This document shows positions 40,523 through 61,718 of a stretch of DNA of 64,000 nucleotides, piece by piece. The notes under the pieces are model-generated. The model worked only from the letters and a program-made list of their open reading frames with translations. It was not told where the DNA came from and searched no databases. A program made the position numbers and the translations under genes. The stretch covers positions 2,432,001 through 2,496,000 of the forward strand of contig CM000208.1 in assembly GCA_000002445.1 (NCBI GenBank), in the 5' to 3' direction. Each line of letters opens with the position of its first letter. Position 1 is the stretch's first letter. Source of the stretch: Trypanosoma brucei. Its lineage: Eukaryota.

Positions 40523-40523
<1 letters not shown>

Positions 40524-42207: not shown

Positions 42208-42323
42208 ATCGCTAAAACTAACGCGAAAGGGAAAAAAATGTGATTTATCAACCCCTCTGTTATACTAATTTTCTAGATCTTTCGTGCTAACGTTTGAATA
42301 ATGGAGTAAATCACCGAAAACAT

Positions 42324-43532: not shown

Positions 43533-43653
43533 TTTCCCAGAGCCACCTAAAGAAGAAAAAGATAGAGCACATACCTGCATCCTGATGCCCAATACACTTC
43601 CACCCACCCATCCCCCTCCCCCAAAAAAATACACACATATATTAGTAAAGTGC

Positions 43654-44766
43654 TTATACCCCACAATCCTTCAACTCTTCCCCCAGAAGCCTGTCCTCCA
43701 CACGTTCCCCATCCACTTGCGCCACCCAGTCCTCCATGCTCTTTTCTTCTTCGTCATCTTCCCCCTCCGTGTTTTTATCAACAGCAGAATTTGCTTTCCT
43801 CCCAAGTGTCCCGAGATCCTCCACATACAGATTCTCCTGAACGAAACGATCTACTAAATGTTTATGCGACGCGTCGACTTTTCTTTCCAGTTCTGCAAAT
43901 AGTTTATAGTCTTTCACCACCTTTACTAGGGTGGGATTCCCTCCCGTTGGATTTTCCTCCCACACCACTGCGGTGTCATACGTTGTCGCCCGGGTGTTTC
44001 CCTTAAACCCCGTCATCTGGGATCCCGACTTGACGACACCGAGCACTCCGTCACCCCATATGATATTCTCAGAGAGATCGCCATTTCCCATATAGCCACC
44101 GCCCGCCTTCCCAACTGTAAGCTGGCATCCCAAATCCTTGCCAAAGTCGTGCCTTGGGTCACCTCCATCCACAAGCAAGCTATCGTGAAGCACGCTTTCC
44201 AAATTCATTTCGAACGGATTTTCAAAAAGGTTTTCGCCTTCTGTAATTTTGAGAGACTCCCACTCACCGCTGTCTTTGTTCTTGGCGTAGCAGCTGGGTA
44301 GCACTTCTTCAGGGAAATTCACACTTAGACCACCGATGCAAGAGTTATTCGCGTCTCTATGGGCCTGAACGAAAACGGACACCATTTCATCCAATCTTCC
44401 TGCGGCAATGCCCGCTTCTCCCACTAATCTCCTTCCAACGTCCCACAACTCGTCCACTTCCCTGACCATGTTCTGCTCATTGATTCTTACCTGTGTAAGG
44501 AATACTCTTAGTGTTCCACACTTCAGTCCTTTGTTCCATTCTGTCAATAATTTCAGTCGTACGACTTTCTGGAGCAGTTGGACTTCCTCGAGTTTTCTGT
44601 CAGCCTCCATGAGTTTCTGCTCGACGAAACCGTGCACAGCCTTTAGTTTTTTTGAGGTATTACATAACGCTTTTATTGCGGACAATTTCAAAGCTGCCCC
44701 AGCGTCCGCATGATGACAACAACCACTTACTAACGCCACTACTAAAAATGCCACTGTTCTTCGCAT
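43654..44766 (-). CDS. PAG5: procyclin-associated gene, ESAG6/7-related; second PAG, PAG5 by locus order
   Basis: Listed start 44829 is GTG. The ATG at 44766 gives the signal peptide 'MRRTVAFLVVALVSGCC'. Shares 'GEAGIAAGRLDEMVSVFVQA' and 'IIWGDGVLGVVKSG'. Confidence 0.65.
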   Translation of the reverse strand: MRRTVAFLVVALVSGCCHHADAGAALKLSAIKALCNTSKKLKAVHGFVEQKLMEADRKLEEVQLLQKVVRLKLLTEWNKGLKCGTLRVFLTQVRINEQNMVREVDELWDVGRRLVGEAGIAAGRLDEMVSVFVQAHRDANNSCIGGLSVNFPEEVLPSCYAKNKDSGEWESLKITEGENLFENPFEMNLESVLHDSLLVDGGDPRHDFGKDLGCQLTVGKAGGGYMGNGDLSENIIWGDGVLGVVKSGSQMTGFKGNTRATTYDTAVVWEENPTGGNPTLVKVVKDYKLFAELERKVDASHKHLVDRFVQENLYVEDLGTLGRKANSAVDKNTEGEDDEEEKSMEDWVAQVDGERVEDRLLGEELKDCGV

Positions 44767-44847
44767 TTGCTGAAGAAAACAAAAGATGTCTGGCACCTGC
44801 AACCCACTAAGTTTTCCCTTAAACCACACAAACTAAAAAATACGATT

Positions 44848-46065
44848 TTAAAACAACAAAAATAACAACGCGAGGGTCCTCCTGAGAGAGCCAATCCTGC
44901 CAACACCACACATCGCCATCTCCTCCAACAGCTTCTCCTCTTGCACCGTTTCTCTGTTCCCGAGCACGACGAAGGACTTCCCACTATCCTCATCTACCAC
45001 TACTGTGCTTTTATTTCCGTGGGTGCCCGTGTTCACAATAGCTTGCGCGTATTCCCAGTTCCAGTGTGCGCCGGTTTCGTGCGCCAGCTCTTCGATGTGA
45101 GTATACAAGTTCACAAATTTGCGAAGCTCTCGGTAGGCGTTTCTAAGAACGGGGACGTTGTTAACGGGGTCTTCCTCCCAAGTTACATCGTGTATTAGAA
45201 CCTCTGCACGGGTTTTTCCTGTCCCCCCAACGAATCCTCTTCCACTTCGTTTAAGGGAAATAATTCCATCTCCCCAGAGTATTCTTCTGGAGGTGCTGTT
45301 TTCGGAGAGGTAGCCGCCCCCCGGACGGGTGTTTGTTAGGTGGCAGTTTGCGCTGTGGACGTAGCGTTCCAAGGGGTTTCCACCGCCACCAGTGAGCCTA
45401 AGCAGTTCGTTCATACTCTCCCGTGTCATGTTCATTTCCTCCACCCTTTCCATGCGGTGCATATCCCCCAAAGAAATAAATTCATCCTTCTCCGAGTCAC
45501 TTAAATAGCAATTCAACAACTGATTCCGCGTCGCGTGGTGCTCGCTATTTCCTACGCAAAAATCCCCTTTCCCACTGGAATACGCGCGCCGCCACACATT
45601 TATCATTTCATCCAACCTCCCCGCCGCTATCCCTGCTGCCCCTACCGCTGAGTATCCAAGATATCTCAACCTCTTCAATTCTCTCCTCTTCACCCTATTC
45701 ACTTTACTCCCCACACGTTTCAAAAACTTCGCGATCCCCGTGCACGAGGTCCAATTGCTATTTCCCCCTTCATTTCCCCTAACCCTCACAATCTTCAACC
45801 TCACCAACTCCACCATATCCTCAAACTCCCTCACCTTCTCGGTTGCATACTTAGTTTTCGCTTGGACGAAGGCATACACCGATTTCAGCCTCTTCGACGC
45901 ATTACAGAGCGCTTCCGCAGCTCCACTCAAACTCAGTGCGCCACTGTCCGCGGAGGCGCTACCAGTAAGTACAAAAAAGGACACAATCACTAATACCTTC
46001 ATGAGCGTGCGAACCCTATTCGCGATGGCAAAGGTCAAGCGAAAAAGGATAATCAAAGAGACCAT
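44848..46065 (-). CDS. PAG1: procyclin-associated gene, ESAG6/7-related; first PAG downstream of EP2, PAG1 by locus order
   Basis: Listed start 46101 is TTG. In-frame ATGs at 46065 and 46002; the latter gives the signal peptide 'MKVLVIVSFFVLTGSASA'. Shares 'AVGAAGIAAGRLDEMINVW' and 'ILWGDGIISLKRSG'. Confidence 0.65.
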   Translation of the reverse strand: MVSLIILFRLTFAIANRVRTLMKVLVIVSFFVLTGSASADSGALSLSGAAEALCNASKRLKSVYAFVQAKTKYATEKVREFEDMVELVRLKIVRVRGNEGGNSNWTSCTGIAKFLKRVGSKVNRVKRRELKRLRYLGYSAVGAAGIAAGRLDEMINVWRRAYSSGKGDFCVGNSEHHATRNQLLNCYLSDSEKDEFISLGDMHRMERVEEMNMTRESMNELLRLTGGGGNPLERYVHSANCHLTNTRPGGGYLSENSTSRRILWGDGIISLKRSGRGFVGGTGKTRAEVLIHDVTWEEDPVNNVPVLRNAYRELRKFVNLYTHIEELAHETGAHWNWEYAQAIVNTGTHGNKSTVVVDEDSGKSFVVLGNRETVQEEKLLEEMAMCGVGRIGSLRRTLALLFLLF

Positions 46066-47758
46066 TTTCGATGATTGATGAAACAGGAAAGACCGCGGCA
46101 AGTTGTGACGCCCCCACTTGGGGACTGGAAAATCCGCCGGGGATGCGCCTGCCAGATTCAGGCTTCAGCAACGGCAACGGCGTTAGTGTTGGCGGGGAAG
46201 GGAAGGTGCAAGGCGCCTTTTTGCAGCTGGAATTTAAAGCTTAACCGACAGCATGAAATCATCCGTGACACTGTCTTATTTCCCTCCAAAACCATTGGAT
46301 ACGCCGTGGTTGGCACACGGCCCATTGCCATCAATTGCTGAGGTGGGCTCGTGTTGCCGGCGGTGGGATCCAATGCACTATGGCGCATCAGAGAAGGAAG
46401 AGCGACCCCCCTGATACTTAGGGGGGTCAAAACAGGGTTTCCAGGCTACAAACCGTTCTTAACGCTATCCGCGACAACACGTTGGTGGGTAGGAAAGTGT
46501 CGGGTAGGGGCTTAAAAGTGAGATTGACCGATGGCAACTATTCTCGAGATGGCATAAAACCCTAACCGCACCCCGCCGACGCTTAGAAATTAGGTCCAGG
46601 AAAGAAAGTCAAGCCCGACCAAGGACCTCCTTTTCTTCGGTTTTGGCTTTGTCGAAAGGACACGAAATCGATCCACCGCGGGGCGCGCAGTGGACTTGTT
46701 ACTTATTTAACTGACTCCTAAACGAGAAAGCTCCCCTGCGGCGCGCGACGCACATCATCTCAAAGGCGATGTGGGAGAGAAAACACTGCGAGAACATATG
46801 ACCACCGACGAGCCGGTGAATGCCCCAGAAGTATTTCAAAAAATGTCACACTCTCCATTGATTGTCCCAGCATATTTCACAAAGTGGACCAAAACAGAGG
46901 GCAGTGCAGTAAATACGTAAAGTTCATGGAAACAACGCGCTTACCCTCTCCGCAGCCTCTCCTCCCCAACAGATCAAGTGGCAGCAGCTCACTCAACTGA
47001 ATCGCTCCCCTGACGAGAACAGTTAAATAAAGGCAAGGCAAAAGGCAAAACACCGCTCAGGCCTCAATTTTGAACAGTTACGGTGAACTTCCTGAAGGTG
47101 CTTTAAAGTTTCCCCGACATATTAACAAACATGATGATGCACCACCGTAGGCGAAGAAGGAATCATCACCAGGAATGTGCTTCCTTCAACCGCTGCTTCC
47201 CATGTTGCAACTCCACGGTGTCAAACGGAAGCTGAGATGGCGGAAATATCGAGGGACAAATCGCTTGAGTCATCAAAAGTCCATTTGTCTCCCATTTCTA
47301 GCCTGAGGTTTTAGAAGGAACTATTTTCCCAGTACGAAAAAAGGACAAGGCAAAAAGTTCGAAAAAAAAAAAGTTCAGTCACAAATGGAGGAGGTTGCTG
47401 TCAACCATTGCAGGAACAAGACATAGGAGAAGACCGCAAATGCAGTGGATGAATTTTTGACAAAACCATACGAATGGTTTACAGAAGAAACCGTTTGGTA
47501 GAAGCCAAGGAACACATTGACAGGCACACGCAGAAGTCTACAGGGCTGCGTGCTACCGCCGACGGTTCCGAGGCATAAAAAAAAAAATAGAACTCAAAAA
47601 AATAGGTTGAAAAAAAATATTACGTATATGCAAGTGTCCTGTCGCCAAGGGACGTCATAAAGCGGGCGCATCGCGCCAAAGGAAAGGTCAAAGAAATAAC
47701 TGGGGCCACCCTTGTTAAAAAGTTTTGACCCCCCAGAGAATTTTCTGTTTACATGAGC

Positions 47759-48148
47759 TTAGAATGCGGCAACGAGACCAACGGCCGCGATTGCAAACGG
47801 AAGAGCAACAGACTTCAGCGTTGCAGCACCAGGTTCAGGTTCAGGTTCAGGTTCCGGCTCGGGTTCCGGCTCGGGTTCAGGTTCGGGTTCAGGTTCGGGT
47901 TCAGGTTCGGGTTCAGGTTCAGGTTCAGGTTCGGGTTCGGGTTCGGGTTCGGGTTCAGGTTCAGGTTCGGGTTCAGGTTCAGGCTCAACTTCGTCCTGGA
48001 CCTTGGTTCCCTTCTCGCCTTTGCCTTTGCCTCCCTTAGTAAGACCCTTGTCTTCTGGTCCTTCAGCGGCTGCGGCAAATCCCACGCCAGCGAAGAGGTT
48101 CGCGCTGAACAGAAGAATAGCGAGCAGATAAAGGGAACGAGGTGCCAT
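47759..48148 (-). CDS. EP2: EP procyclin (PARP), isoform without an N-glycosylation sequon; EP2-type
   Basis: '[54 protein letters not shown](EP)~26[23 protein letters not shown]'. Has the signal peptide, the (Glu-Pro)n rod and a hydrophobic GPI-addition tail. No GPEET motif. Confidence 0.9.
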
Positions 48149-49077: not shown

Positions 49078-49503
49078 TTAGAATGCGGCAACGAGAGCAG
49101 CAGCCGCGACTGCAAACGGAAGTGCAACAGATTTCAGCGTTGCAGCACCAGGTTCAGGTTCAGGTTCGGGTTCAGGTTCCGGCTCGGGTTCCGGCTCGGG
49201 TTCAGGTTCAGGTTCCGGCTCGGGTTCAGGTTCGGGTTCAGGTTCAGGTTCAGGTTCAGGTTCAGGTTCAGGTTCAGGTTCGGGTTCGGGTTCGGGTTCG
49301 GGTTCAGGTTCAGGTTCAGGGTCGGGGTCAGTGCCATTGGTATCGTCGGCGCCGACCTTGGTTCCCTTCTCGCCTTTGCCTTTGCCTCCCTTAGTAAGAC
49401 CCTTGTCTTCTGGTCCTTCAGCGGCTGCGGCAAATCCCACGCCAGCGAAGAGGTTCGCGCTGAACAGAAGAATAGCGAGCAGATAAAGGGAACGAGGTGC
49501 CAT
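49078..49503 (-). CDS. EP1: EP procyclin (PARP), isoform with an N-glycosylation sequon; EP1-type and first gene of the unit
   Basis: Same N- and C-termini as EP2, but '[14 protein letters not shown]' (NGT sequon) precedes about 28 EP dipeptides. The 47 nt upstream of the ATG are identical to those upstream of EP2. Confidence 0.9.
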
Positions 49504-49900: not shown

Positions 49901-50925
49901 GTCCAGGGGAGCGGTGCCTGTTCGCGGTGCGGAATTGTTGTTTCCCCCTCTTCCTCATCCGCCCCCTCGGTTCCGTGGGCCCTGACTCCCGAAGAGTTTT
50001 CGAGAATTGTTAATAGAGAAGGGATTCGCTCACCATATTCGGAACAATACACTTGTCAGAAGTTTGGCAATCCAGTTTGGGGGCACTGAAAAGCACTTTG
50101 TGGTGAATCAGCGGCATTTAGGCCGGCAGCGGTATGTTTTGCTACGAAACACCGGGCATCGAAGAAGTCAGAAAGCCCTTCAGCACGACGGCTGATGGAG
50201 AACGCTGGTAAAGTTTTCCTTTCATGCGCCCTCAACGAGAACTAGCGGAAATTAAAACCAATTTCGGCGGATAAAGGCCCCGCAACTCGGCACATCGGCG
50301 GCGTTGGTGGGCCGACTCACCGATAAAACGAGCCGACACCTGCCACCACACACACTGGTATATGAAGGGGGCACCTCCGGTGGGCACGCAACTCCCAATG
50401 AGCTTTTGCCGTGGTGGGAACCGTGGCGCGCCTGATTGGTTGAAATTTCGTCGGCACAATGACCTGCCAGGATGCGTTGGGCTTGGTTAAGGATGTTGGC
50501 GCTTTGGGGAAACGAAGACCCACGCTCAGCGGAGCCTGAACATGGGACCACATCTGCGTGGTTTATTGGGCTGCCAAGGCCTCCGAAAGGCGAGCCCGAT
50601 CCTGGAAACGGGTGGAGCAAGTTCCTAAGAGGGTTGCTCTCCCGCGTTTCACGGCCCACTGCCTACGCGCGCAGGGTAAGTAAATTGGCTTAGACATAGC
50701 CCCCGAAAGGGGAAAAAGAAGGTCAAGGATGGCAACCGGGTTCTGTCCGTGACATTGCGAGGGACAATTGGTTGCCATGACCGGAAGGCGCCCGCCACCC
50801 ATGGGTTTCTACCCACCCCCAAATGAGGCGAGGGTTTTGCAGGCTAGGAATATCTATGATTGAATCAAATATTGCCATGCCTCCCCCCGATGTGGGACAC
50901 GCAAATGCGTTACGCTCCCCTCCCC

Positions 50926-50941
50926 CCCCCCCCCCGAAGGG
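50926..50941. repeat. poly(C)16 homopolymer inside the GC-rich island
   Basis: 'cccccccccccccccc' read directly. Confidence 0.9.
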
Positions 50942-51206
50942 ACCGAACGCACAGCCTCCTCCACGAGGTGGAACAAAGGAAACGGTAGGACAGCAGCGGC
51001 GCACGACTACCACACAACCACTGAGCACACCGATGAGAAGCGATACGCTTGGAACATGGGGCGCACCGAAGGGAAAAAGCACTGAAGAAAAGGGCGGAGC
51101 GGGTGAATCGAAGGGCTCCCCGAATGTAAACACGCGCGCACTGAAGAACACACACCGCGACAGTTGCTCAAAGTCAGCGCGACCCGGGTGTTGCATTGCA
51201 CCTAGG

Positions 51207-51370
51207 CGCACACGCAACTCCACTGCCTCCTGTAGCAAGGCCGCGTAAGTTTGGGGGCCTCCAAGGGCAAGTCAAAACCCGTCGAGGCGGAGCCTCGGTT
51301 AGATAACGGTAACGGAACACGCTACAGCGGGTCCGGCGTCGCTACAGGAGGCAGTGGAGTTGCGTGTGCG
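51207..51370. repeat. perfect 30-bp inverted repeat with a 104-nt spacer (potential hairpin)
   Basis: 51207-51236 'cgcacacgcaactccactgcctcctgtagc' is the exact reverse complement of 51341-51370 'gctacaggaggcagtggagttgcgtgtgcg'. It is also visible as the shared 'RTRNSTASCS' in the opposite-strand ORFs 50823..51248(+) and 51299..51565(-). Confidence 0.85.
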
Positions 51371-54065
51371 GAAACCACAGTGCAGGGTGCGCAGTGGATA
51401 ATTTGTGGAAAGGCTACCATCCGCGTCCGACCACGTTGTGACGGCCGAATGGTTTCCATCACGACATGGCTGCCCACGTATCACGACGAAACCGATAAGA
51501 GATTCGCAGGGTCCAATGGAAGGAGTGAAAAAAACGGGGTGAAGATGAGGAAAGAAAGGCAACACTTACGAGCATTCCGAAATTAAAGCCCGTGATACGG
51601 AGGAGCTGTGTCAAATTGCGAATGACGGAGACGATGTTGGGATACACCTCACAGCATTAAGCTGGGGTCGCCGTTCTCACTGGCATCCCTGGATGCGATA
51701 ACAAGGAGTTGGGCCATATCGGCGAAACGCTACCAGCAATAGCCGAGCTTTAAGCAGTAAGCGAGGAAAGCTGGTGCAACCGGGAACCCACCACTGGGTG
51801 TGCGACCGGGAAGGGAAGGAAATCCGCAGCCAGTTGGAGTTGGTATTCCAATGGTCGTCGGGCTACTTGGCCACTACCACCCGTACCTCAACCGCCTCAC
51901 ACACCCAACAGCATGCACTTACTCATGCACCAAGACGCATGAATAAATGCACTGGGAAGGTAAATAAATTCAGCTTTAAAAAAAAAAGATGAGCCAGGGA
52001 GATTACGTAAAAGGGGCTCATCCGCACCTCCCGCACACCGCAAAATAATAATAATAATAACGCTATGTTAAAAAGCACAAGCAACGGAAAAGCCTCTGCT
52101 TACATTTGTTAATGCACAGGCGCAGCGCAGCGGAGAGAACCCTGCAATTCTCCATGCGCAAAATCACTGTTCAACCGAAAGGGACGACACCCCGAGTGGC
52201 GCAAGTACGGCGGCCAGGGCATGTTTACAAACATGCGTTGAGTATGGCGACTCGACAATCCCCCAAAAATTATGAAAATGGGGGGCAGCAAGACCCGCAC
52301 CCACAACCCACACGGTTTTAGAGCAAACACGCCTACAGGCATCAAAAAAAGTAAAAAAAACTGGCACAGTCATAAAAGGTCCCAGCCGACTTTCCAGCAC
52401 GTTCTCCACCTTCACCTTTGAACGTTAGAAACATTACAACGGTGATCTGTGTGACGCACCTTTGTTAAATTACCCTTAAAAGATAGACAAAAAGCGAAGG
52501 ATCATTAGCGACGTCGCAATACAACCGAGTTTCCGCAACAACCGCAACGACACCCCATTTCCACACAATGCAAAACCGAAGGCAGCACTTCCTCACCACC
52601 CTTCCGCCTCCGCACTACTTGTCATGACCCCCCGCGTTGTCGCCCCCGTAGTGATACCGCTTCCGTGATTTCAAAGGACATAAACACTTACAAAACTGGT
52701 ACAAATCCCTGCACCATCAACATGATAGTGGTTGGCATACTTTCCAACCGCTGTGGTCTGAACTCGCACTACCTTCCCAACCTCTACAATCACACAAAGG
52801 GACAAAAAAATCAGAGGTTCTACTCCAACCTACGGCGTATTCAGTACCACAGCCCAGCATCCGAAGGGACAAAACACGCACCAACAACTCGGGCACGATT
52901 TACACCGTTCCCTCGCACCGACAAGCCACACAAACACCAAATTCATTACGAAATATAACCATCCCCTCACTAATACAAGGCGAAACAATAAGCATAATCA
53001 AACAGCTGACAGACAGAAATCCACCGCAGGGCTCAATGTAAGCTAACTTCGCCCTCCCCCTCCCTCACCCTATGGCCTCAGTGTTGCCCTGTAAAACCTT
53101 CTCTGACACTAGTCAAGCAGAGGTAAAAACTAACCTAACCCTAACACTCTCACACAATGAAAGGAGAATCCGTGGGGAATTTGGGAAAAGGCAAAGCACA
53201 CACGGTAAGCAGTCGGCACAACCCCTGGCGCAAAGAAGGCGCAACTGCACGCAAACAAGGCATTCGATTCAGTACCTTCTGTAGGATATGTGGGTTGCCA
53301 TACCGTAGGCAGTTACCAGTAACAGAAACGTATGGGGAAGGAAAGAATCAAAATATAGCTAAAGCTCCTCAACGCATATATATATACATATATTACCGTT
53401 TCACAGCCAATTCATACATCACACTTAACGCTCCCTCTAAACAACGACCCCAAACAATAACATCCCCAGGTACCTCACCAACAACAACAACAACACAATT
53501 CTTAATTAGCAAATATGGCTTCAATGGAGGCAAAGGAAGAAAGGAAGGACGTACACTCCAACTGTGAGATCCCGCTCGAATCAGCTGTAGCGACGAGAGT
53601 AGTTAACGGAAGGTCGACCCAGGGACCCACATCGCATCCCTACGCTGCCGTTAACATACCCTCAAGTGAAAATTAAAAAAAAAAATGGACCAAAAGTTGA
53701 TTTCAGCAAAAGTGCGTCCGAAAGAAAGGGCACGAAACAACAAACAGAAAATAATCAGCAGCAAAATAAATACATCACATTACGTGGCTATCACTGGACA
53801 CAACCAATAGTTGGTCAGCACGTGCCAGTAGTCGATCGACAAAATACATAATAATCAGCACAGTTAGCACAGGAGAGATAATATCAGCCCTTTCACGCAA
53901 CGCATTATCCACACTCACAACACGAAACAACTACGTTGAGGACAAACGAATGGCGCCACCCAATGGCATACTCCTGCGTACATTGATCTCCACAGTGCAG
54001 CACTCATACGTAAAGACCTTCCAATCACAGTTTAAAAAAGAGGAAAATACCGCTTCTCAAATATT

Positions 54066-57000
54066 CTACACCTTGCGACCCGAGTGATTAACGAAGGTTG
54101 CGCGGTTAGTCGTAACATACATCGAAGGGTCCACATGACGGACCTGTACTGCAGGTTTCCCAATGGGACGAGGAGGACATTGTACCTCAGGCCTGATAAA
54201 CCTGTTGCGGTATTCGCTGCTTACACCTTGCATAGAAATGCTTGACTGTTTAACAGTCGGAGCAGCCTTTGGCATATAAGGTTTGCTGGCACCGTGTGCC
54301 TTGAAATCTCTATGCGCGGTACTCACGTACATATCAGCATCTACATGACAAGGGCAGGAATAACCAACATTAGGGGCCTTTTTCCACTTTGACACACGTA
54401 CTCCGTTACCAGTTGGTTGATCGCCCACAGCCGCAGCAGCACACTCAGTAGTAGCTGCAACAGCCGCAGCAGCACCTCCATTACTCTCCCCACTTGCGAC
54501 ACACTTCATATCAGTGGAGACATCAACCTTCTTTGATGTCACACCACCATCACTTTTACCTTTCACGACCTTCTTAACAACAATAGCATCAGCTACAGAT
54601 GAAGCAGTAAAGCTATGCCTCTTAGATATAACAGATTCATCACCAAAGGAAGACTCCCTACACGAACTCTTATAACAAGAAGAATCATAGCGACAATACG
54701 AATCCTTTGCAGTTGTCCTAAAGTGGCCATCATCACCACCGCGACTTGACACTTTCACAACTTCCTCACGGAGCACATCACGCTTATATGCGGCAGGGTC
54801 AATTGGTGCATACGATTCTGCAGTGGTTGAGCGGAAGTGACTGGGATCAACATGACGAGGGCCCGTTGCCTCCTCTTCCTCACGGAGCACATCACGCTTA
54901 TATGCGGCAGGGTCAATTGGCGCATACGATTCTGCAGTGGTTGAGCGGAAGTGACTGGGATCAACATGACGAGGGCCCGTTGCCTCCTCTTCCTCACGGA
55001 GCACATCACGCTTATATGCGGCAGGGTCAATTGGCGCATACGATTCTGCAGTGGTTGAGCGGAAGTGACTGGGATCAACATGACGAGGGCCCGTTACCTC
55101 CTCTTCCTCACGGAGCACATCACGCTTATATGCGGCAGGGTCAATTGGCGCATACGATTCTGCAGTGGTTGAGCGGAAGTGACTGGGATCAACATGACGA
55201 GGGCCCGTTACCTCCTCTTCCTCACGGAGCACATCACGCTTATATGCGGCAGGGTCAATTGGTGCATACGATTCTGCAGTGGTTGAGCGGAAGTGACTGG
55301 GATCAACATGACGAGGGCCCGTTACCTCCTCTTCCTCACGGAGCACATCACGCTTATATGCGGCAGGGTCAATTGGTGCATGCGATTCTGCAGTGGTTGA
55401 GCGGAAGTGACTGGGGTCAACATGACGAGGGCCCGTTACCTCCTCTTCCTCACGGAGCACATCACGCTTATATGCGGCAGGGTCAATTGGCGCATACGAT
55501 TCTGCAGTGGTTGAGCGGAAGTGACTGGGGTCAACATGACGAGGGCCCGTTACCTCCTCTTCCTCACGGAGCACATCACGCTTATATGCGGCAGGGTCAA
55601 TTGGCGCATACGATTCTGCAGTGGTTGAGCGGAAGTGACTGGGGTCAACATGACGAGGGCCCGTTACCTCCTCTTCCTCACGGAGCACATCACGCTTATA
55701 TGCGGCAGGGTCAATTGGTGCATACGATTCTGCAGTGGTTGAGCGGAAGTGACTGGGGTCAACATGACGAGGGCCCGTTACCTCCTCTTCCTCACGGAGC
55801 ACATCACGCTTATATGCGGCAGGGTCAATTGGCGCATACGATTCTGCAGTGGTTGAGCGGAAGTGACTGGGGTCAACATGACGAGGGCCCGTTACCTCCT
55901 CTTCCTCACGGAGCACATCACGCTTATATGCGGCAGGGTCAATTGGCGCATACGATTCTGCAGTGGTTGAGCGGAAGTGACTGGGGTCAACATGACGAGG
56001 GCCCGTTACCTCCTCTTCCTCACGGAGCACATCACGCTTATATGCGGCAGGGTCAATTGGCGCATACGATTCTGCAGTGGTTGAGCGGAAGTGACTGGGA
56101 TCAACATGACGAGGGCCCGTTGCCTCCTCTTCCTCACGGAGCACATCACGCTTATATGCGGCAGGGTCAATTGGCGCATACGATTCTGCAGTGGTTGAGC
56201 GGAAGTGACTGGGATCAACATGACGAGGGCCCGTTACCTCCTCTTCCTCACGGAGCACATCACGCTTATATGCGGCAGGGTCAATTGGCGCATACGATTC
56301 TGCAGTGGTTGAGCGGAAGTGACTGGGGTCAACATGACGAGGGCCCGTTACCTCCTCTTCCTCACGGAGCACATCACGCTTATATGCGGCAGGGTCAATT
56401 GGCGCATACGATTCTGCAGTGGTTGAGCGGAAGTGACTGGGATCAACATGACGAGGGCCCGTTACCTCCTCTTCCTCACGGAGCACATCACGCTTATATG
56501 CGGCAGGGTCAATTGGCGCATACGATTCTGCAGTGGTTGAGCGGAAGTGACTGGGATCAACATGACGAGGGCCCGTTACCTCCTCTTCCTCACGGAGCAC
56601 ATCACGCTTATATGCGGCAGGGTCAATTGGCGCATACGATTCTGCAGTGGTTGAGCGGAAGTGACTGGGATCAACATGACGAGGGCCCGTTACCTCCTCT
56701 TCCTCACGGAGCACATCACGCTTATATGCGGCAGGGTCAATTGGTGCATACGATTCTGCAGTGGTTGAGCGGAAGTGACTGGGGTCAACATGACGAGGGC
56801 CCGTTACCTCCTCTTCCTCACGGAGCACATCACGCTTATATGCGGCAGGGTCAATTGGTGCATACGATTCTGCAGTGGTTGAGCGGAAGTGACTGGGGTC
56901 AACATGACGAGGGCCCGTTACCTCCTCTTCCTCACGGAGCACATCACGCTTATATGCGGCAGGGTCAATTGGCGCATACGATTCTGCAGTGGTTGAGCGG

Positions 57001-60000
57001 AAGTGACTGGGGTCAACATGACGAGGGCCCGTTACCTCCTCTTCCTCACGGAGCACATCACGCTTATATGCGGCAGGGTCAATTGGCGCATACGATTCTG
57101 CAGTGGTTGAGCGGAAGTGACTGGGGTCAACATGACGAGGGCCCGTTACCTCCTCTTCCTCACGGAGCACATCACGCTTATATGCGGCAGGGTCAATTGG
57201 TGCATACGATTCTGCAGTGGTTGAGCGGAAGTGACTGGGGTCAACATGACGAGGGCCCGTTACCTCCTCTTCCTCACGGAGCACATCACGCTTATATGCG
57301 GCAGGGTCAATTGGCGCATACGATTCTGCAGTGGTTGAGCGGAAGTGACTGGGATCAACATGACGAGGGCCCGTTACCTCCTCTTCCTCACGGAGCACAT
57401 CACGCTTATATGCGGCAGGGTCAATTGGCGCATACGATTCTGCAGTGGTTGAGCGGAAGTGACTGGGATCAACATGACGAGGGCCCGTTGCCTCCTCTTC
57501 CTCACGGAGCACATCACGCTTATATGCGGCAGGGTCAATTGGCGCATACGATTCTGCAGTGGTTGAGCGGAAGTGACTGGGATCAACATGACGAGGGCCC
57601 GTTACCTCCTCTTCCTCACGGAGCACATCACGCTTATATGCGGCAGGGTCAATTGGCGCATACGATTCTGCAGTGGTTGAGCGGAAGTGACTGGGGTCAA
57701 CATGACGAGGGCCCGTTACCTCCTCTTCCTCACGGAGCACATCACGCTTATATGCGGCAGGGTCAATTGGTGCATACGATTCTGCAGTGGTTGAGCGGAA
57801 GTGACTGGGATCAACATGACGAGGGCCCGTTACCTCCTCTTCCTCACGGAGCACATCACGCTTATATGCGGCAGGGTCAATTGGTGCATACGATTCTGCA
57901 GTGGTTGAGCGGAAGTGACTGGGATCAACATGACGAGGGCCCGTTACCTCCTCTTCCTCACGGAGCACATCACGCTTATATGCGGCAGGGTCAATTGGTG
58001 CATACGATTCTGCAGTGGTTGAGCGGAAGTGACTGGGGTCAACATGACGAGGGCCCGTTACCTCCTCTTCCTCACGGAGCACATCACGCTTATATGCGGC
58101 AGGGTCAATTGGCGCATACGATTCTGCAGTGGTTGAGCGGAAGTGACTGGGATCAACATGACGAGGGCCCGTTACCTCCTCTTCCTCACGGAGCACATCA
58201 CGCTTATATGCGGCAGGGTCAATTGGTGCATACGATTCTGCAGTGGTTGAGCGGAAGTGACTGGGGTCAACATGACGAGGGCCCGTTACCTCCTCTTCCT
58301 CACGGAGCACATCACGCTTATATGCGGCAGGGTCAATTGGCGCATACGATTCTGCAGTGGTTGAGCGGAAGTGACTGGGGTCAACATGACGAGGGCCCGT
58401 TACCTCCTCTTCCTCACGGAGCACATCACGCTTATATGCGGCAGGGTCAATTGGCGCATACGATTCTGCAGTGGTTGAGCGGAAGTGACTGGGATCAACA
58501 TGACGAGGGCCCGTTACCTCCTCTTCCTCACGGAGCACATCACGCTTATATGCGGCAGGGTCAATTGGCGCATACGATTCTGCAGTGGTTGAGCGGAAGT
58601 GACTGGGATCAACATGACGAGGGCCCGTTACCTCCTCTTCCTCACGGAGCACATCACGCTTATATGCGGCAGGGTCAATTGGCGCATACGATTCTGCAGT
58701 GGTTGAGCGGAAGTGACTGGGGTCAACATGACGAGGGCCCGTTACCTCCTCTTCCTCACGGAGCACATCACGCTTATATGCGGCAGGGTCAATTGGCGCA
58801 TACGATTCTGCAGTGGTTGAGCGGAAGTGACTGGGGTCAACATGACGAGGGCCCGTTACCTCCTCTTCCTCACGGAGCACATCACGCTTATATGCGGCAG
58901 GGTCAATTGGCGCATACGATTCTGCAGTGGTTGAGCGGAAGTGACTGGGGTCAACATGACGAGGGCCCGTTACCTCCTCTTCCTCACGGAGCACATCACG
59001 CTTATATGCGGCAGGGTCAATTGGCGCATACGATTCTGCAGTGGTTGAGCGGAAGTGACTGGGATCAACATGACGAGGGCCCGTTACCTCCTCTTCCTCA
59101 CGGAGCACATCACGCTTATATGCGGCAGGGTCAATTGGCGCATACGATTCTGCAGTGGTTGAGCGGAAGTGACTGGGGTCAACATGACGAGGGCCCGTTA
59201 CCTCCTCTTCCTCACGGAGCACATCACGCTTATATGCGGCAGGGTCAATTGGCGCATACGATTCTGCAGTGGTTGAGCGGAAGTGACTGGGATCAACATG
59301 ACGAGGGCCCGTTACCTCCTCTTCCTCACGGAGCACATCACGCTTATATGCGGCAGGGTCAATTGGTGCATACGATTCTGCAGTGGTTGAGCGGAAGTGA
59401 CTGGGGTCAACATGACGAGGGCCCGTTGCCTCCTCTTCCTCACGGAGCACATCACGCTTATATGCGGCAGGGTCAATTGGCGCATACGATTCTGCAGTGG
59501 TTGAGCGGAAGTGACTGGGATCAACATGACGAGGGCCCGTTGCCTCCTCTTCCTCACGGAGCACATCACGCTTATATGCGGCAGGGTCAATTGGTGCATA
59601 CGATTCTGCAGTGGTTGAGCGGAAGTGACTGGGATCAACATGACGAGGGCCCGTTACCTCCTCTTCCTCACGGAGCACATCACGCTTATATGCGGCAGGG
59701 TCAATTGGTGCATACGATTCTGCAGTGGTTGAGCGGAAGTGACTGGGGTCAACATGACGAGGGCCCGTTACCTCCTCTTCCTCACGGAGCACATCACGCT
59801 TATATGCGGCAGGGTCAATTGGTGCATACGATTCTGCAGTGGTTGAGCGGAAGTGACTGGGGTCAACATGACGAGGGCCCGTTACCTCCTCTTCCTTACG
59901 GAGCACATCACGCTTATATGCGGCAGGGTCAATTGGTGCATACGATTCTGCAGTGGTTGAGCGGAAGTGACTGGGGTCAACATGACGAGGGCCCGTTACC

Positions 60001-60839
60001 TCCTCTTCCTCACGGAGCACATCACGCTTATATGCGGCAGGGTCAATTGGTGCATACGATTCTGCAGTGGTTGAGCGGAAGTGACTGGGATCAACATGAC
60101 GAGGGCCCGTTACCTCCTCTTCCTCACGGAGCACATCACGCTTATATGCGGCAGGGTCAATTGGTGCATACGATTCTGCAGTGGTTGAGCGGAAGTGACT
60201 GGGGTCAACATGACGAGGGCCCGTTACCTCCTCTTCCTCACGGAGCACATCACGCTTATATGCGGCAGGGTCAATTGGTGCATACGATTCTGCAGTGGTT
60301 GAGCGGAAGTGACTGGGGTCAACATGACGAGGGCCCGTTACCTCCTCTTCCTCACGGAGCACATCACGCTTATATGCGGCAGGGTCAATTGGTGCATACG
60401 ATTCTGCAGTGGTTGAGCGGAAGTGACTGGGATCAACATGACGAGGGCCCGTTACCTCCTCTTCCTCACGGAGCATATCACGCTTATATGCGGCAGGGTC
60501 AATTGGTGCATACGATTCTGCAGTGGTTGAGCGGAAGTGACTGGGATCAACATGACGAGGGCCCGTTACCTCCTCTTCCTCACGGAGCATATCACGCTTA
60601 TATGCGGCAGGGTCAATTGGTGCATACGATTCTTTCATTGTGGAAAGTATTTCTTTATAATTTTGTTTATTTGCTTTTTGTTGTTTCATATAAAGGTTTT
60701 CAGTATTGTGCGGCAAACTTTTTTTTTTGTTTTTTATGTCGATGCAATCGTAGACCTCTGCTCTTTCTTTATCTCTTTGTGGATATGGTTGCGGATCATT
60801 CCACTTATAGTCTGCTTCTAATCCCTTTGTGCCAGGCAT
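54066..60839 (-). CDS. MARP: microtubule-associated repetitive protein (MARP-type). Has N- and C-terminal unique domains flanking about 51 tandem 38-aa repeats.
   Basis: 2,257-aa ATG-initiated ORF. Repeat unit 'SYAPIDPAAYKRDVLREEEEVTGPRHVDPSHFRSTTAE' (38 aa, 114 bp) reiterated almost identically. Ordinary unique N- and C-terminal sequences. The 38-aa periodicity is the hallmark of trypanosome MARP/MAP. Confidence 0.85.
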   Translation of the reverse strand: MPGTKGLEADYKWNDPQPYPQRDKERAEVYDCIDIKNKKKSLPHNTENLYMKQQKANKQNYKEILSTMKESYAPIDPAAYKRDMLREEEEVTGPRHVDPSHFRSTTAESYAPIDPAAYKRDMLREEEEVTGPRHVDPSHFRSTTAESYAPIDPAAYKRDVLREEEEVTGPRHVDPSHFRSTTAESYAPIDPAAYKRDVLREEEEVTGPRHVDPSHFRSTTAESYAPIDPAAYKRDVLREEEEVTGPRHVDPSHFRSTTAESYAPIDPAAYKRDVLREEEEVTGPRHVDPSHFRSTTAESYAPIDPAAYKRDVLRKEEEVTGPRHVDPSHFRSTTAESYAPIDPAAYKRDVLREEEEVTGPRHVDPSHFRSTTAESYAPIDPAAYKRDVLREEEEVTGPRHVDPSHFRSTTAESYAPIDPAAYKRDVLREEEEATGPRHVDPSHFRSTTAESYAPIDPAAYKRDVLREEEEATGPRHVDPSHFRSTTAESYAPIDPAAYKRDVLREEEEVTGPRHVDPSHFRSTTAESYAPIDPAAYKRDVLREEEEVTGPRHVDPSHFRSTTAESYAPIDPAAYKRDVLREEEEVTGPRHVDPSHFRSTTAESYAPIDPAAYKRDVLREEEEVTGPRHVDPSHFRSTTAESYAPIDPAAYKRDVLREEEEVTGPRHVDPSHFRSTTAESYAPIDPAAYKRDVLREEEEVTGPRHVDPSHFRSTTAESYAPIDPAAYKRDVLREEEEVTGPRHVDPSHFRSTTAESYAPIDPAAYKRDVLREEEEVTGPRHVDPSHFRSTTAESYAPIDPAAYKRDVLREEEEVTGPRHVDPSHFRSTTAESYAPIDPAAYKRDVLREEEEVTGPRHVDPSHFRSTTAESYAPIDPAAYKRDVLREEEEVTGPRHVDPSHFRSTTAESYAPIDPAAYKRDVLREEEEVTGPRHVDPSHFRSTTAESYAPIDPAAYKRDVLREEEEVTGPRHVDPSHFRSTTAESYAPIDPAAYKRDVLREEEEVTGPRHVDPSHFRSTTAESYAPIDPAAYKRDVLREEEEVTGPRHVDPSHFRSTTAESYAPIDPAAYKRDVLREEEEVTGPRHVDPSHFRSTTAESYAPIDPAAYKRDVLREEEEATGPRHVDPSHFRSTTAESYAPIDPAAYKRDVLREEEEVTGPRHVDPSHFRSTTAESYAPIDPAAYKRDVLREEEEVTGPRHVDPSHFRSTTAESYAPIDPAAYKRDVLREEEEVTGPRHVDPSHFRSTTAESYAPIDPAAYKRDVLREEEEVTGPRHVDPSHFRSTTAESYAPIDPAAYKRDVLREEEEVTGPRHVDPSHFRSTTAESYAPIDPAAYKRDVLREEEEVTGPRHVDPSHFRSTTAESYAPIDPAAYKRDVLREEEEVTGPRHVDPSHFRSTTAESYAPIDPAAYKRDVLREEEEVTGPRHVDPSHFRSTTAESYAPIDPAAYKRDVLREEEEVTGPRHVDPSHFRSTTAESYAPIDPAAYKRDVLREEEEVTGPRHVDPSHFRSTTAESYAPIDPAAYKRDVLREEEEVTGPRHVDPSHFRSTTAESYAPIDPAAYKRDVLREEEEATGPRHVDPSHFRSTTAESYAPIDPAAYKRDVLREEEEVTGPRHVDPSHFRSTTAESYAPIDPAAYKRDVLREEEEVTGPRHVDPSHFRSTTAESYAPIDPAAYKRDVLREEEEVTGPRHVDPSHFRSTTAESYAPIDPAAYKRDVLREEEEVTGPRHVDPSHFRSTTAESYAPIDPAAYKRDVLREEEEVTGPRHVDPSHFRSTTAESYAPIDPAAYKRDVLREEEEVTGPRHVDPSHFRSTTAESHAPIDPAAYKRDVLREEEEVTGPRHVDPSHFRSTTAESYAPIDPAAYKRDVLREEEEVTGPRHVDPSHFRSTTAESYAPIDPAAYKRDVLREEEEVTGPRHVDPSHFRSTTAESYAPIDPAAYKRDVLREEEEATGPRHVDPSHFRSTTAESYAPIDPAAYKRDVLREEEEATGPRHVDPSHFRSTTAESYAPIDPAAYKRDVLREEVVKVSSRGGDDGHFRTTAKDSYCRYDSSCYKSSCRESSFGDESVISKRHSFTASSVADAIVVKKVVKGKSDGGVTSKKVDVSTDMKCVASGESNGGAAAAVAATTECAAAAVGDQPTGNGVRVSKWKKAPNVGYSCPCHVDADMYVSTAHRDFKAHGASKPYMPKAAPTVKQSSISMQGVSSEYRNRFIRPEVQCPPRPIGKPAVQVRHVDPSMYVTTNRATFVNHSGRKV
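54765..60632. repeat. 114-bp tandem repeat array, about 51.5 units, at least 97% identical
   Basis: Unit '...cctcttcctcacggagcacatcacgcttatatgcggcagggtcaattgg[c/t]gcatacgattctgcagtggttgagcggaagtgactggg[a/g]tcaacatgacgagggcccgtt[a/g]cct...' read continuously. Most variants are synonymous; V/A and M/V substitutions are rare. Confidence 0.95.
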
Positions 60840-61169
60840 CCTTCCTTTGGTATTTTTGATTCCTATTTATTGTAAGTAGTTTTTACACTTATATTTCTGA
60901 AGGTAAGATGCTTCTTTTTCTTAGGTGATTTATGGATATTGAGTAGAGAAATTATATCCTGCAGAGGGGTGTGTGGTAAATTATCTTACAGCGAATATTC
61001 TAATTTTTTTTCATCATTTGGGGTTGAGTTAGCGGATATTAAGGTATACTTTTGGTGTTCAGTCATCACAGTTCCTTGTGGAAGGTGTTACTCATGCAAA
61101 TACACGTGACGTTAGGCGTTTGAGAAACTGCCTCCTTTTCTACATCTACTGACTGGCAACCGCTGGTCG

Positions 61170-61718
61170 TTACATTTGGGTTCTCGCGCCACAGTTCCTT
61201 CCCGCGGACAACTGTCTTTGCACGTGGTGGTTTAAAATGGTGACATCCATAGCAGACTTTGTTGTGCGAAATCGGTCAACCATGGCATCATCTACTGTTG
61301 GTTGGTTTACTGGTTTGGACAGTTTCCCAGTTAGTGCAAAGCGGTCTACGCCGCTGAGCGTGTTTAACGGTTTGCAATGGTGCTTTGGCTTCCCATACCT
61401 GCTATCAATCAGGTATCGCTGTGTGGCGCCATAGTCTTTGCTTGTTGCCACCACTTCATCGACTGTTGGTAGGCCGCTTCCAAATATAAGGCTCTTCCCG
61501 AGTCCACGCTGCCGCAACATCGGCCGGACAGCTGTAACACATGGGGTAGAGTAATCAGCCTTATAAACTGAGGACGGCAGCGGAGATTGGCCGTCTACTG
61601 CGATCGTGAATTTGCCATGCGCCTCATTGATGCGTGCGTCGAACCAGTTATCTACGAGGACACCGCTGTTGTAATGGTTGTCAAAACATGGAAGAACTCG
61701 CTTGTCCCCGGTGTGCAT
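61170..61718 (-). CDS. hypothetical protein (182 aa)
   Basis: Listed start 61742 is GTG; the first ATG is at 61718. It is preceded on the minus strand by a polyY tract ('tttttttcttctctcaccattccctttg') plus AG. Composition is protein-like; no domain recognised. Confidence 0.35.
   Translation of the reverse strand: MHTGDKRVLPCFDNHYNSGVLVDNWFDARINEAHGKFTIAVDGQSPLPSSVYKADYSTPCVTAVRPMLRQRGLGKSLIFGSGLPTVDEVVATSKDYGATQRYLIDSRYGKPKHHCKPLNTLSGVDRFALTGKLSKPVNQPTVDDAMVDRFRTTKSAMDVTILNHHVQRQLSAGRNCGARTQM

What the first reader, a model, noticed from the sequence alone, without database searches (positions are those of the whole stretch)
54765..60632. MARP 114-bp array: about 51 units with block-wise distribution of synonymous variants
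The repeats are nearly identical, but three variant sites are not randomly scattered (ggCgcatacg/ggTgcatacg, ggGAtcaac/ggGGtcaac, ccgttAcc/ccgttGcc). The ggTgcatacg form dominates roughly the 5'-terminal dozen units (about 59.3-60.6 kb). The ggCgcatacg form dominates the middle. GttGcc (Ala) units appear in pairs (about 54.8-55.1, 56.1, 57.5, 59.4-59.6 kb). This pattern is the footprint of segmental duplication or gene conversion within the array. It also warns that the unit count could be an assembly collapse or expansion. A rare K (REEEEV to RKEEEV) unit and an H (SYAPID to SHAPID) unit are present.
Basis: seen in the sequence. Interest (0 to 1): 0.5.

Follow-up and report, generated by a model that had tools for sequence, protein, structure and literature searches.

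The report
Trypanosome MARP-2 gene repeat array
This is the well-known repeat domain of the Trypanosoma brucei microtubule-associated protein MARP-2 (51 nearly identical 38-amino-acid units), and its few sequence variants show the ordinary pattern of repeats that keep copying each other, so the finding is real but unremarkable.

Summary
The array is real. It has 51 complete 114-bp units plus a partial 52nd, at 54762-60632, with 99% identity. It is read on the minus strand as a 2257-aa protein (ORF 54066-60839). EP1 and EP2 procyclin genes lie just downstream, so this is the T. brucei chromosome X EP/PAG locus. The gene is therefore the published MARP-2 (Tb927.10.10280, KHAP3, BBP268).

Only six sites vary, and all six changes are transitions. 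It missed a V-to-M change in units 1-2.

Only one site (GCG/GCA, site 12) is significantly clustered, because of units 1-12. The Ala (V-to-A) units are two pairs plus two singles, which is marginal. The GAC/GAT site is scattered at random. One of the three "synonymous" sites is Val/Ala.

A T. b. gambiense counterpart has at least 57 units ending in an assembly gap. It carries a substitution fixed across its whole array (T in 57/57 units against C in 51/51 here) and reversed majorities at other sites. This is classic concerted evolution.

There is no excess of multi-unit block duplication and no internal sign of collapse. Even so, this array is broken by gaps in all three other trypanosome assemblies examined, so the unit count remains unverified. 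Already known; low interest.

The parts
54066..60839 (-). Complete MARP-2-type coding sequence: 2257 aa, 254.6 kDa, pI 5.3. ATG at 60839-60837, TAG stop at 54068-54066.
   Evidence: ORF list and translation. Mass. In-frame stops lie upstream of the ATG. Homologues in T. b. gambiense, T. cruzi, T. theileri and a congolense-like sequence.
60633..60839 (-). Unique N-terminal domain, 69 aa.
   Evidence: Translation. Colinear with the gambiense MARP-2-type contig, 64/69 aa identical.
54819..60632 (-). 51 complete 114-bp (38-aa) units with consensus ESYAPIDPAAYKRDVLREEEEVTGPRHVDPSHFRSTTA. Six variable sites, all transitions.
59265..60632 (-). Units 1-12, the 5' domain of the array. GCA (A at site 12) occurs in 11 of these 12 units. 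Units 1-2 also carry Val to Met (bases 60590 and 60476).
   Evidence: Fisher test of the first 12 units against the rest gives P=7e-5 (post hoc).
59379..59606 (-). Units 10-11, a pair of Val-to-Ala units (site 65 C; bases 59542 and 59428).
57441..57554 (-). Unit 28, a single Val-to-Ala unit (base 57490).
56073..56186 (-). Unit 40, a single Val-to-Ala unit (base 56122).
54819..55046 (-). Units 50-51, a pair of Val-to-Ala units at the 3' edge of the array (bases 54982 and 54868).
59835..59948 (-). Unit 7, the single Glu-to-Lys unit (REEEEV to RKEEEV; base 59897).
55275..55388 (-). Unit 47, the single Tyr-to-His unit (SYAPID to SHAPID; base 55382).
54762..54818 (-). Partial unit 52: the first 19 codons, after which the sequence diverges into the C-terminal domain.
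54069..54761 (-). Non-repetitive C-terminal domain. Together with the partial unit it forms 250 aa that are 97% identical to the C-terminus of the MARP-1-type gene. It holds degenerate copies of the unit motif (HVDADMYVSTAHRDF, RHVDPSMYVTTNRATF) and the published phosphopeptide QSSISMQGVSSEYR.
54746..60859 (+). Antisense 2037-aa ORF. It is not a gene: one antisense frame of the 114-bp unit happens to contain no stop codon.
49078..49503 (-). EP1-type procyclin gene downstream of MARP. This is the context that fixes the locus.
   Evidence: Translation with EP dipeptide repeats. CAGGTT hexamer array. Published locus map.
47759..48148 (-). EP2-type procyclin gene.

Best explanation
The region is the repeat domain of the Trypanosoma brucei gene for microtubule-associated repetitive protein 2 (MARP-2, Tb927.10.10280, KHAP3, BBP268). 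It lies on the minus strand, immediately upstream of the EP1/EP2 procyclin locus on chromosome X.

The protein consists of a 69-aa N-terminal domain, 51 nearly identical 38-aa units, and a 250-aa C-terminal domain.

From published work, not tested here: each 38-aa unit is a microtubule-binding motif, the C-terminal domain also binds microtubules, and the protein decorates the subpellicular microtubule corset.

Inferred: a long, acidic, largely unfolded chain lies along microtubules through many weak, identical contacts.

Repeated unequal exchange and short-tract gene conversion between misaligned units keep the units almost identical. These processes spread variants mainly to neighbouring units and let different variants take over the array in different lineages. 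Units at the 5' edge take less part in this exchange, so they keep their own variant set (GCA at site 12, Met in units 1-2). Amino-acid changes stay rare because the peptide is under purifying selection.
For: Shown here:
- Array anatomy and reading frame.
- Locus identity from EP1/EP2 and PAG-like genes downstream and from the published map in which MARP2 is the Pol II gene upstream of EP/PAG1.
- The unit is 19/38 identical to the MARP-1-type unit of P0001, and the C-terminus is 97% identical. This matches the published description of about 50% and 95%.
- The published MARP phosphopeptide QSSISMQGVSSEYR is present in the protein.

Concerted evolution:
- Adjacent units differ by 0.98 sites against 1.37 for random pairs (none of 5000 shuffles as low, P<2e-4). 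The correlation of unit distance with sequence difference is Mantel r=0.19.
- The gambiense counterpart array (L001 3297-9827, same 5' flank at 97.6%) has site 48 T in 57/57 units against C in 51/51 here.
- In gambiense, site 57 is G in 39/57 units against A in 51/51 here. Ala at site 65 is in 54/57 against 6/51. T at site 87 is in 55/57 against 25/51.
- No unit type is shared between the arrays. Within-array differences are 1.37 and 1.16, against 3.68 between arrays.
- Sites 12, 65 and 87 are polymorphic in both independent assemblies, so they are not sequencing errors.
- Site 12 A is enriched at the 5' end in both arrays (window 11/12 against 10/39; gambiense 6/13 against 5/44, P=0.011).

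Short-tract or intra-unit exchange: sites 12 and 87 lie 75 nt apart within a unit and 39 nt apart across a unit boundary. All four combinations occur, with no association (P=0.40 and P=0.16).

Purifying selection: the two high-frequency variants are synonymous, and three of the four amino-acid variants occur in only 1-2 units.

Structure: AlphaFold2 on four units plus the C-terminus gives mean pLDDT 41 with only a short helix per unit. This fits a chain that is unfolded when alone.

From the literature: repeat units bind microtubules (abstract of PMC2289396). The C-terminus binds microtubules, and joint RNAi of both MARPs reduces growth about 50-fold (bioRxiv 10.1101/2020.10.07.330316).
Against: - The exact 2257-aa protein is absent from the protein collections searched, so the strain and assembly version of the window are not established.
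- The literature mass of MARP-2 (267-268 kDa) does not match 254.6 kDa.
- Outside units 1-12 no site is significantly clustered, so local spreading rests mainly on the lag-1 similarity and the 5' block.
- The gambiense contig is misplaced or gap-bounded in its scaffold, and its N-terminal 69 aa differ at 5 positions. It may therefore be an allelic or paralogous copy rather than a strict orthologue. That would weaken, though not remove, the concerted-evolution argument.
- Order and number of units in a 5.8-kb, 99%-identical array depend on how it was assembled, which cannot be checked here.
- Microtubule binding was not tested here.
Confidence: 0.85

Rival explanations
1. Assembly artefact. The number and order of units, and hence the blocks, were produced by the assembler through collapse, expansion or interleaving of the two alleles of a diploid genome. 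They would not reflect the real array.
For: - Only 7-13% of 100-150-mers in the array are unique.
- In T. b. gambiense the same array ends in a 100-N gap after 57.3 units and sits inside another MARP gene.
- In T. cruzi and T. theileri the homologous arrays are reduced to 2-4.5 copies between N gaps.
- The published mass of 267 kDa fits 54 units, not 51.
Against: - The window has no N.
- Every stretch of 500 bp or more within the array is unique, so accurate reads of 500-800 bp could tile it. This argument is partly circular.
- The longest internal repeat (489 bp) is what a random order of these units gives (P=0.35). There is neither the shortage of long repeats expected after collapse nor the excess expected after spurious expansion.
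- The variant sites recur in an independent assembly.
Confidence: 0.2
2. Recent segmental duplication of multi-unit blocks (a higher-order repeat structure) produced the pattern.
For: - The Ala units recur with a preceding T87 unit: unit types 'cf' at units 27-28 and 39-40, and 'cff' at units 49-51.
- Weak dips in unit distance appear at lags 10, 13 and 22-23 (P=0.02-0.03, uncorrected for 25 lags).
Against: - The longest exact internal repeat of 489 bp is not longer than in shuffled arrays (median 508 bp, maximum 911 bp).
- No lag other than lag 1 survives correction for multiple tests.
- Adjacency of the Ala units gives P=0.10.
Confidence: 0.08
3. The variants are sequencing or consensus errors in a perfectly homogeneous array.
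For: Two variants are singletons (Lys in unit 7, His in unit 47), and neither is seen in gambiense.
Against: - Sites 12, 65 and 87 vary in 21, 6 and 25 units, always with the same two bases.
- The same three sites are polymorphic in the independently sequenced gambiense array.
- Random errors would not hit three sites 52 times and be all transitions.
Confidence: 0.02
4. The 5' block reflects functional differentiation of the first dozen units, maintained by selection.
For: A 5' enrichment of the same variant is seen in both arrays. Units 1-2 carry Met for Val.
Against: The variant that defines the block is synonymous (GCG/GCA). Apart from units 1-2, the peptide of the block equals the consensus except in three units: Lys in unit 7 and Ala in units 10-11.
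Confidence: 0.03

Closest known systems
MARP-2 of Trypanosoma brucei (Tb927.10.10280; TbKHAP3; TbBBP268). Affolter et al. 1994 as cited in bioRxiv 10.1101/2020.10.07.330316; 'MARP2' probe in PMC2731899.
   Same: - Position directly upstream of the EP/PAG procyclin locus.
- 38-aa near-identical tandem units, more than 50 in number.
[quoted passage not shown]
- C-terminus nearly identical to MARP-1.
- Contains the published phosphopeptide.
   Different: The predicted mass is 254.6 kDa (51 units) against the quoted 267-268 kDa, which would fit 54 units. The exact protein is not in the collections searched.
MARP-1 of T. brucei (Tb927.10.10360; TbKHAP2), represented here by the T. b. gambiense gene fragments in L001 (P0001).
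   Same: - Same architecture and unit length.
- C-terminal 250 aa 97% identical.
- 5' flank 99% identical and 3' flank 97.9% identical.
   Different: - The unit sequence is only 19/38 identical (EAYKPIDPSEYRQKRTVGEEVTTDMRHVDESHFLTTTH).
- The N-terminal domain is different.
- It sits at the ancestral syntenic position (MAP, MORN kinase, SMC, TPR) shared with T. cruzi and T. theileri.
T. b. gambiense DAL972 MARP-2-type array (L001 3297-9827).
   Same: Same unit, same N-terminal domain and 5' flank. The same three polymorphic sites (12, 65, 87), and 5' enrichment of site 12 A.
   Different: - At least 57 units, ending in a gap.
- Site 48 fixed for T.
- Ala is the majority residue at codon 22.
- 17 identical units in a row.
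- Five N-terminal amino-acid differences.
Concertedly evolving coding tandem arrays in general. This comparison rests on my own knowledge, not a tool result: other trypanosomatid tandem-repeat antigens such as GM6 and T. cruzi Ag36/MAP, and rDNA-type homogenisation.
   Same: Units are more alike within an array than between lineages. There are array-wide fixed differences. Edge units diverge more than central ones.
   Different: Nothing unusual. This array behaves as the model predicts.

Membership tests
MARP (microtubule-associated repetitive proteins of T. brucei), specifically MARP-2 | More than 50 tandem, nearly identical 38-amino-acid (114-bp) units. | tested here: met
   51 complete units plus a partial one, 99% identical, no indels.
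MARP (microtubule-associated repetitive proteins of T. brucei), specifically MARP-2 | [quoted passage not shown] | tested here: met
   69-aa N-terminus and 250-aa C-terminus. 243/250 identical to the C-terminus of the MARP-1-type gene P0001.
MARP (microtubule-associated repetitive proteins of T. brucei), specifically MARP-2 | Repeat units about 50% identical to those of the other MARP. | tested here: met
   19/38 identical residues between the window consensus and the P0001 unit, counted by hand.
MARP (microtubule-associated repetitive proteins of T. brucei), specifically MARP-2 | Genomic position: the Pol II gene immediately upstream of the EP/PAG procyclin locus on chromosome X. | tested here: met
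   EP1-type and EP2-type genes at 49078-49503 and 47759-48148, then PAG-like ORFs, all on the same strand. Published map.
MARP (microtubule-associated repetitive proteins of T. brucei), specifically MARP-2 | Predicted size as published (267-268 kDa). | tested here: not met
   254.6 kDa here; 54 units would give 267.6 kDa. This is a unit-count difference, not a difference in kind.
MARP (microtubule-associated repetitive proteins of T. brucei), specifically MARP-2 | Binding of the repeat units and the C-terminus to microtubules; localisation to the subpellicular corset. | not testable with these tools
   Literature only.
Concerted evolution of a tandem array (a process, not a protein family) | Units more similar within an array than between lineages, with array-wide fixed differences. 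| tested here: met
   Differences per unit are 1.37 and 1.16 within arrays, against 3.68 between. Site 48 is C in 51/51 units against T in 57/57. No shared unit type. Caveat: orthology of the gambiense contig is not certain.
Concerted evolution of a tandem array (a process, not a protein family) | Similarity decays with distance within the array; edge units are more divergent. | tested here: met
   Lag-1 similarity (none of 5000 shuffles as low, P<2e-4) and Mantel r=0.19. However, the distance effect comes from units 1-12 only (r=0.018 without them).
Higher-order (multi-unit) repeat structure from segmental duplication | Repeated multi-unit blocks longer than expected from the unit composition. 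| tested here: not met
   Longest exact internal repeat is 489 bp against a shuffle median of 508 bp, P=0.35.
TPR (tetratricopeptide, TPR_12-like) repeat proteins. Considered because more than 100 bacterial TPR proteins were hit. | Significant similarity of a single unit; matching period; helical solenoid fold. | tested here: not met
   - One MARP unit against TPR units scores 13 bits (E=1.6e4 at library size). The score only grows by multiplying repeats, reaching 103 bits for 6 x 8 units.
- The period is 42 against 38.
- No Pfam TPR hit.
- AlphaFold2 gives pLDDT 41 and no solenoid.

The most novel reading that the evidence does not exclude
The homogenisation process in the MARP-2 array may be polar. 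In both the window array and the T. b. gambiense array, the GCA variant of site 12 is concentrated in the first dozen units, while the central and 3' parts are swept by lineage-specific variants. This could mean that the 5' edge is an old, slowly exchanging domain whose position has been conserved since the two lineages split. It could also mean that unit gain and loss happen mostly in the 3' two-thirds, for example because of the direction of replication or transcription through the array. The resulting unit-number differences (51, possibly 54, at least 57) would be real strain polymorphisms that change the length of a cytoskeletal cross-linker.
Probability: 0.3. Interest if true: 0.3.

Novelty: already known. 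Interest (0 to 1): 0.12.

Why it matters
It matters little for biology. MARP-1 and MARP-2, with their near-identical 38-aa units, have been described since 1988-1994, and the variant pattern is what concerted evolution predicts.

The practical value is as a caution:
- The unit count of this gene (51 here) differs from the count implied by the published mass (54) and from the gambiense contig (at least 57, ending in a gap).
- The homologous arrays are gapped in every other trypanosome assembly examined.
- Protein length, mass and peptide counts for MARPs taken from reference genomes should therefore not be trusted without long-read confirmation.
- The variant map (sites 12, 65 and 87 plus four rarer markers) could serve as an internal ruler for validating such assemblies or for typing strains.

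Tried and rejected
1. Exact-sequence look-ups of the 2257-aa protein found nothing, so the source assembly could not be identified.
2. The word-indexed protein search returned only four relatives and none of the long T. brucei MARP proteins. Unit counts in other T. brucei strains could therefore not be compared directly.
3. The exhaustive HMMER search returned more than 100 bacterial TPR proteins. I rejected these as repeat-times-repeat score inflation after a single-unit test gave 13 bits.
4. Pfam and PDB sequence searches gave no family and no solved relative.
5. The AlphaFold2 model was too poor (pLDDT 41) for a fold search, so none was run.
6. The full text of Hemphill et al. 1992 is not held (abstract only), and Affolter et al. 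1994 is not in the library. The assignment to MARP-2 therefore rests on later papers.
7. A literature search for copy-number or long-read data on MARP gave nothing relevant.
8. A test for collapse or expansion using the longest internal exact repeat gave no signal either way.

Full report
**What is there**

Tandem Repeats Finder reports a single array at 54761-60633, with period 114, 51.5 copies, 99% matches and no indels.

- The array lies inside a 2257-codon ORF on the minus strand (54066-60839).
- The protein has a 69-aa unique N-terminus.
- It then has 51 complete 38-aa units with consensus ESYAPIDPAAYKRDVLREEEEVTGPRHVDPSHFRSTTA. Unit 1 is 60632-60519 and unit 51 is 54932-54819.
- A partial 52nd unit and a C-terminal domain follow, 250 aa together.
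- The equally long ORF on the plus strand (54746-60859) is not a gene. One antisense frame of the unit simply has no stop codon.

**Identity**

- Downstream on the same strand lie two EP procyclin genes (49078-49503 and 47759-48148). Their EP dipeptide runs appear as CAGGTT hexamer arrays on the plus strand.
- Four paralogous PAG-like ORFs follow, and then a convergent strand-switch region near 39.4-41 kb.
- This is the EP/PAG procyclin locus of Trypanosoma brucei chromosome X. In the published map, the Pol II gene directly upstream of it is MARP, probed as 'MARP2' (PMC2731899).
- Later papers equate MARP-2 with Tb927.10.10280, TbKHAP3 and BBP268, and MARP-1 with Tb927.10.10360. They describe both as short unique ends around 38-aa repeats. 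[quoted passage not shown]
- These features were checked against the T. b. gambiense protein P0001, which carries the other unit type. The units are 19/38 identical and the C-terminal 250 aa are 243/250 identical.
- The phosphopeptide QSSISMQGVSSEYR, reported for Tb927.10.10280 (PMC12222847), is present in the window protein.
- There is no Pfam family and no solved relative.

Across the 51 units only six sites vary, and all six changes are transitions:

| Site | Change | Effect | Units carrying the minor form |
|---|---|---|---|
| 12 | G/A | Ala, synonymous | 21 |
| 87 | C/T | Asp, synonymous | 25 |
| 65 | T/C | Val to Ala | 10, 11, 28, 40, 50, 51 |
| 43 | G/A | Val to Met | 1, 2 |
| 52 | G/A | Glu to Lys | 7 |
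| 7 | T/C | Tyr to His | 47 |

It missed the Met units, and it called the set 'synonymous' although site 65 is not.

Permutation tests give the following:

- Site 12 is clearly clustered. It forms 16 runs (P=0.003) and its longest run is 10 (P=0.001). The A form occurs in 11 of the first 12 units against 10 of the other 39.
- Without units 1-12, clustering at site 12 disappears (P=0.16).
- Site 65 is marginal (runs P=0.024; adjacent pairs P=0.10). It forms two pairs and two singletons.
- Site 87 is indistinguishable from random (P=0.2-0.5).

Taken over whole units, neighbours are more alike than random pairs (0.98 against 1.37 differences, none of 5000 shuffles as low, P<2e-4). Distance along the array correlates with sequence difference (Mantel r=0.19). 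That correlation is again due to units 1-12, because without them r=0.018.

**Mechanism of the DNA pattern**

Segmental duplication of multi-unit blocks was tested and not supported.

- The longest exact internal repeat is 489 bp. Random orders of the same 51 units give a median of 508 bp (P=0.35).
- Sites 12 and 87 lie 75 nt apart within a unit and 39 nt apart across a unit boundary. All four combinations occur, with no association. This indicates exchange with breakpoints inside units, or short conversion tracts.

The strongest evidence comes from a related locus. The T. b. gambiense DAL972 chromosome 10 scaffold (L001) holds a contig with the same 5' flank (97.6% identity), the same N-terminal domain and the same unit type. 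It has 57 complete units before a 100-N gap. Compared with the window array:

| Feature | Window | T. b. gambiense |
|---|---|---|
| Site 48 | C in 51/51 | T in 57/57 |
| Site 57 | A in 51/51 | G in 39/57, in blocks |
| Ala at codon 22 (site 65) | 6/51 | 54/57 |
| T at site 87 | 25/51 | 55/57 |
| Mean differences between units within the array | 1.37 | 1.16 |

- No unit type is shared, and the mean difference between units of the two arrays is 3.68.
- Sites 12, 65 and 87 are polymorphic in both assemblies, so they are real variants and not errors.
- In both arrays the A form of site 12 is enriched at the 5' end (gambiense 6/13 against 5/44, P=0.011).

This is the textbook signature of concerted evolution by unequal exchange and gene conversion, with edge units taking less part. 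One caveat applies. The gambiense contig differs at 5 of 69 N-terminal residues and is oddly placed in its scaffold, so strict orthology is not certain.

**Assembly question**

- The window array contains no N.
- As written, every substring of 500 bp or more is unique, whereas only 7-13% of 100-150-mers are unique. It could have been tiled by accurate reads of 500-800 bp or by long reads, but not by short reads.
- The internal-repeat statistic shows no sign of collapse or expansion. This cannot prove correctness.
- External evidence calls for caution. The gambiense scaffold places the MARP-2-type contig between two gaps inside a MARP-1-type gene.
- In T. cruzi and T. theileri the homologous 114-bp arrays are reduced to 2-4.5 copies between N gaps of 0.4-4 kb.
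- The mass quoted for MARP-2 (267-268 kDa) corresponds to 54 units, whereas the window gives 254.6 kDa.
- A TREU927 'putative MAP' of exactly 2257 aa is listed in PMC12114266. The window therefore probably corresponds to one version of the reference genome, but the exact protein is not in the collections I could query.

**How the protein works**

This part comes from the literature and inference and was not tested here.

- The 38-aa units are a microtubule-binding motif, and the C-terminal domain also binds microtubules (PMC2289396 abstract; Affolter 1994 as cited).
- The C-terminal domain contains degenerate copies of the unit motif that are invariant in T. cruzi and T. theileri (HVDxxxYxST.H.DF, RHVDPSxYTTT).
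- AlphaFold2 gives no confident fold (mean pLDDT 41) and only a short helix per unit.
- The most likely picture is an acidic (pI 5.3), largely unfolded chain that lies along the subpellicular microtubules through many identical weak contacts.

**Rejected leads**

The exhaustive HMMER search returned more than 100 bacterial TPR proteins. A single MARP unit scores only 13 bits against TPR units. The score rises to 103 bits only when near-identical repeats are multiplied on both sides, so these hits are an artefact.

**Verdict**

The interpretation as intra-array homogenisation is right. Block duplication is not supported. The assembly caveat is sensible but untestable here. The object is the already characterised MARP-2 gene, and nothing about it departs from expectation.

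Noticed in passing
window 47759-48148 (-) and 49078-49503 (-); hexamer arrays at 47830-47987 and 49149-49331: There are two EP procyclin genes. The upstream one is EP1-type with an NGT glycosylation site; the downstream one is EP2-type. Their Glu-Pro dipeptide runs show up as 26 and 30 copies of CAGGTT on the plus strand. They fix the window as the T. brucei chromosome X EP/PAG locus.
   Followed up: partly
window 41086-46101 (-) and about 39400-41080: Four paralogous ORFs of 373-446 aa (PAG-like) lie downstream of the procyclin genes. They are followed by a convergent strand-switch region containing (AT)18 at 40485-40522. All large ORFs from 8 to 39396 are on the plus strand. GC skew is strongly negative over 40-46 kb.
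   Followed up: no
window 54746-60859 (+): A 2037-aa ORF lies antisense to MARP. It exists only because one antisense frame of the 114-bp unit has no stop codon, so it is a trap for automatic gene callers.
   Followed up: yes
L001 (T. b. gambiense DAL972 FN554973.1, 2452002-2473252, reversed) 798-11251: The scaffold order is: 16.1 MARP-1-type units, 100 N, a MARP-2-type N-terminus with 57.3 units, 100 N, then 5.2 MARP-1-type units with the C-terminus. It is annotated as three separate proteins (725, 2245 and 416 aa). A MARP-2-type contig appears to have been dropped into the gap of the MARP-1 gene.
   Followed up: partly
L002 (T. cruzi MKQG01002414.1) 2233-9944; L003 (T. theileri NBCO01000008.1) 7056-9958: The homologous 114-bp MAP arrays survive only as 2-4.5 copies between N gaps of 0.4-4 kb. 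The annotated proteins (321 and 328 aa) start inside a repeat.
   Followed up: partly
L001, L002, L003 downstream of the MAP gene; window 53016-54807 and 60954-61376: The gene order MAP, MORN-domain kinase, SMC, TPR/ANAPC3 is shared by T. cruzi, T. theileri and the gambiense MARP-1-type locus. The EP-adjacent copy in the window is therefore the derived duplicate. The two T. brucei paralogues still share a 99%-identical 5' flank and a 97.9%-identical C-terminus plus 3' flank, while the N-terminal coding part and the repeats differ. This suggests gene conversion of the flanks.
   Followed up: partly
window 54069-54818 (-): The C-terminal domain contains degenerate copies of the unit motif (GGDDGHFRTTAKDSY, CPCHVDADMYVSTAHRDFKAH, VRHVDPSMYVTTNRATF). 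Their core residues are invariant in the T. cruzi, T. theileri and congolense-like homologues.
   Followed up: partly
one search hits P0006, P0010, P0032 and about 100 others: Bacterial TPR (kinesin-light-chain-like, 42-aa period) proteins match the MARP repeat with E-values down to 1e-32. This is score inflation from near-identical repeats on both sides, not homology.
   Followed up: yes
window 50000-53900: About 4.5 kb lies between MARP and EP1 with no convincing ORF. The stretch 50-52 kb is GC-rich (0.55) and 52-54 kb is A-rich (AT skew +0.30). It presumably holds the MARP 3' UTR and the procyclin promoter region, but it was not examined.
   Followed up: no
window 54066-60839 (-) against the literature: The predicted mass is 254.6 kDa, against 267-268 kDa quoted for Tb927.10.10280. 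The difference equals exactly three units.
   Followed up: partly
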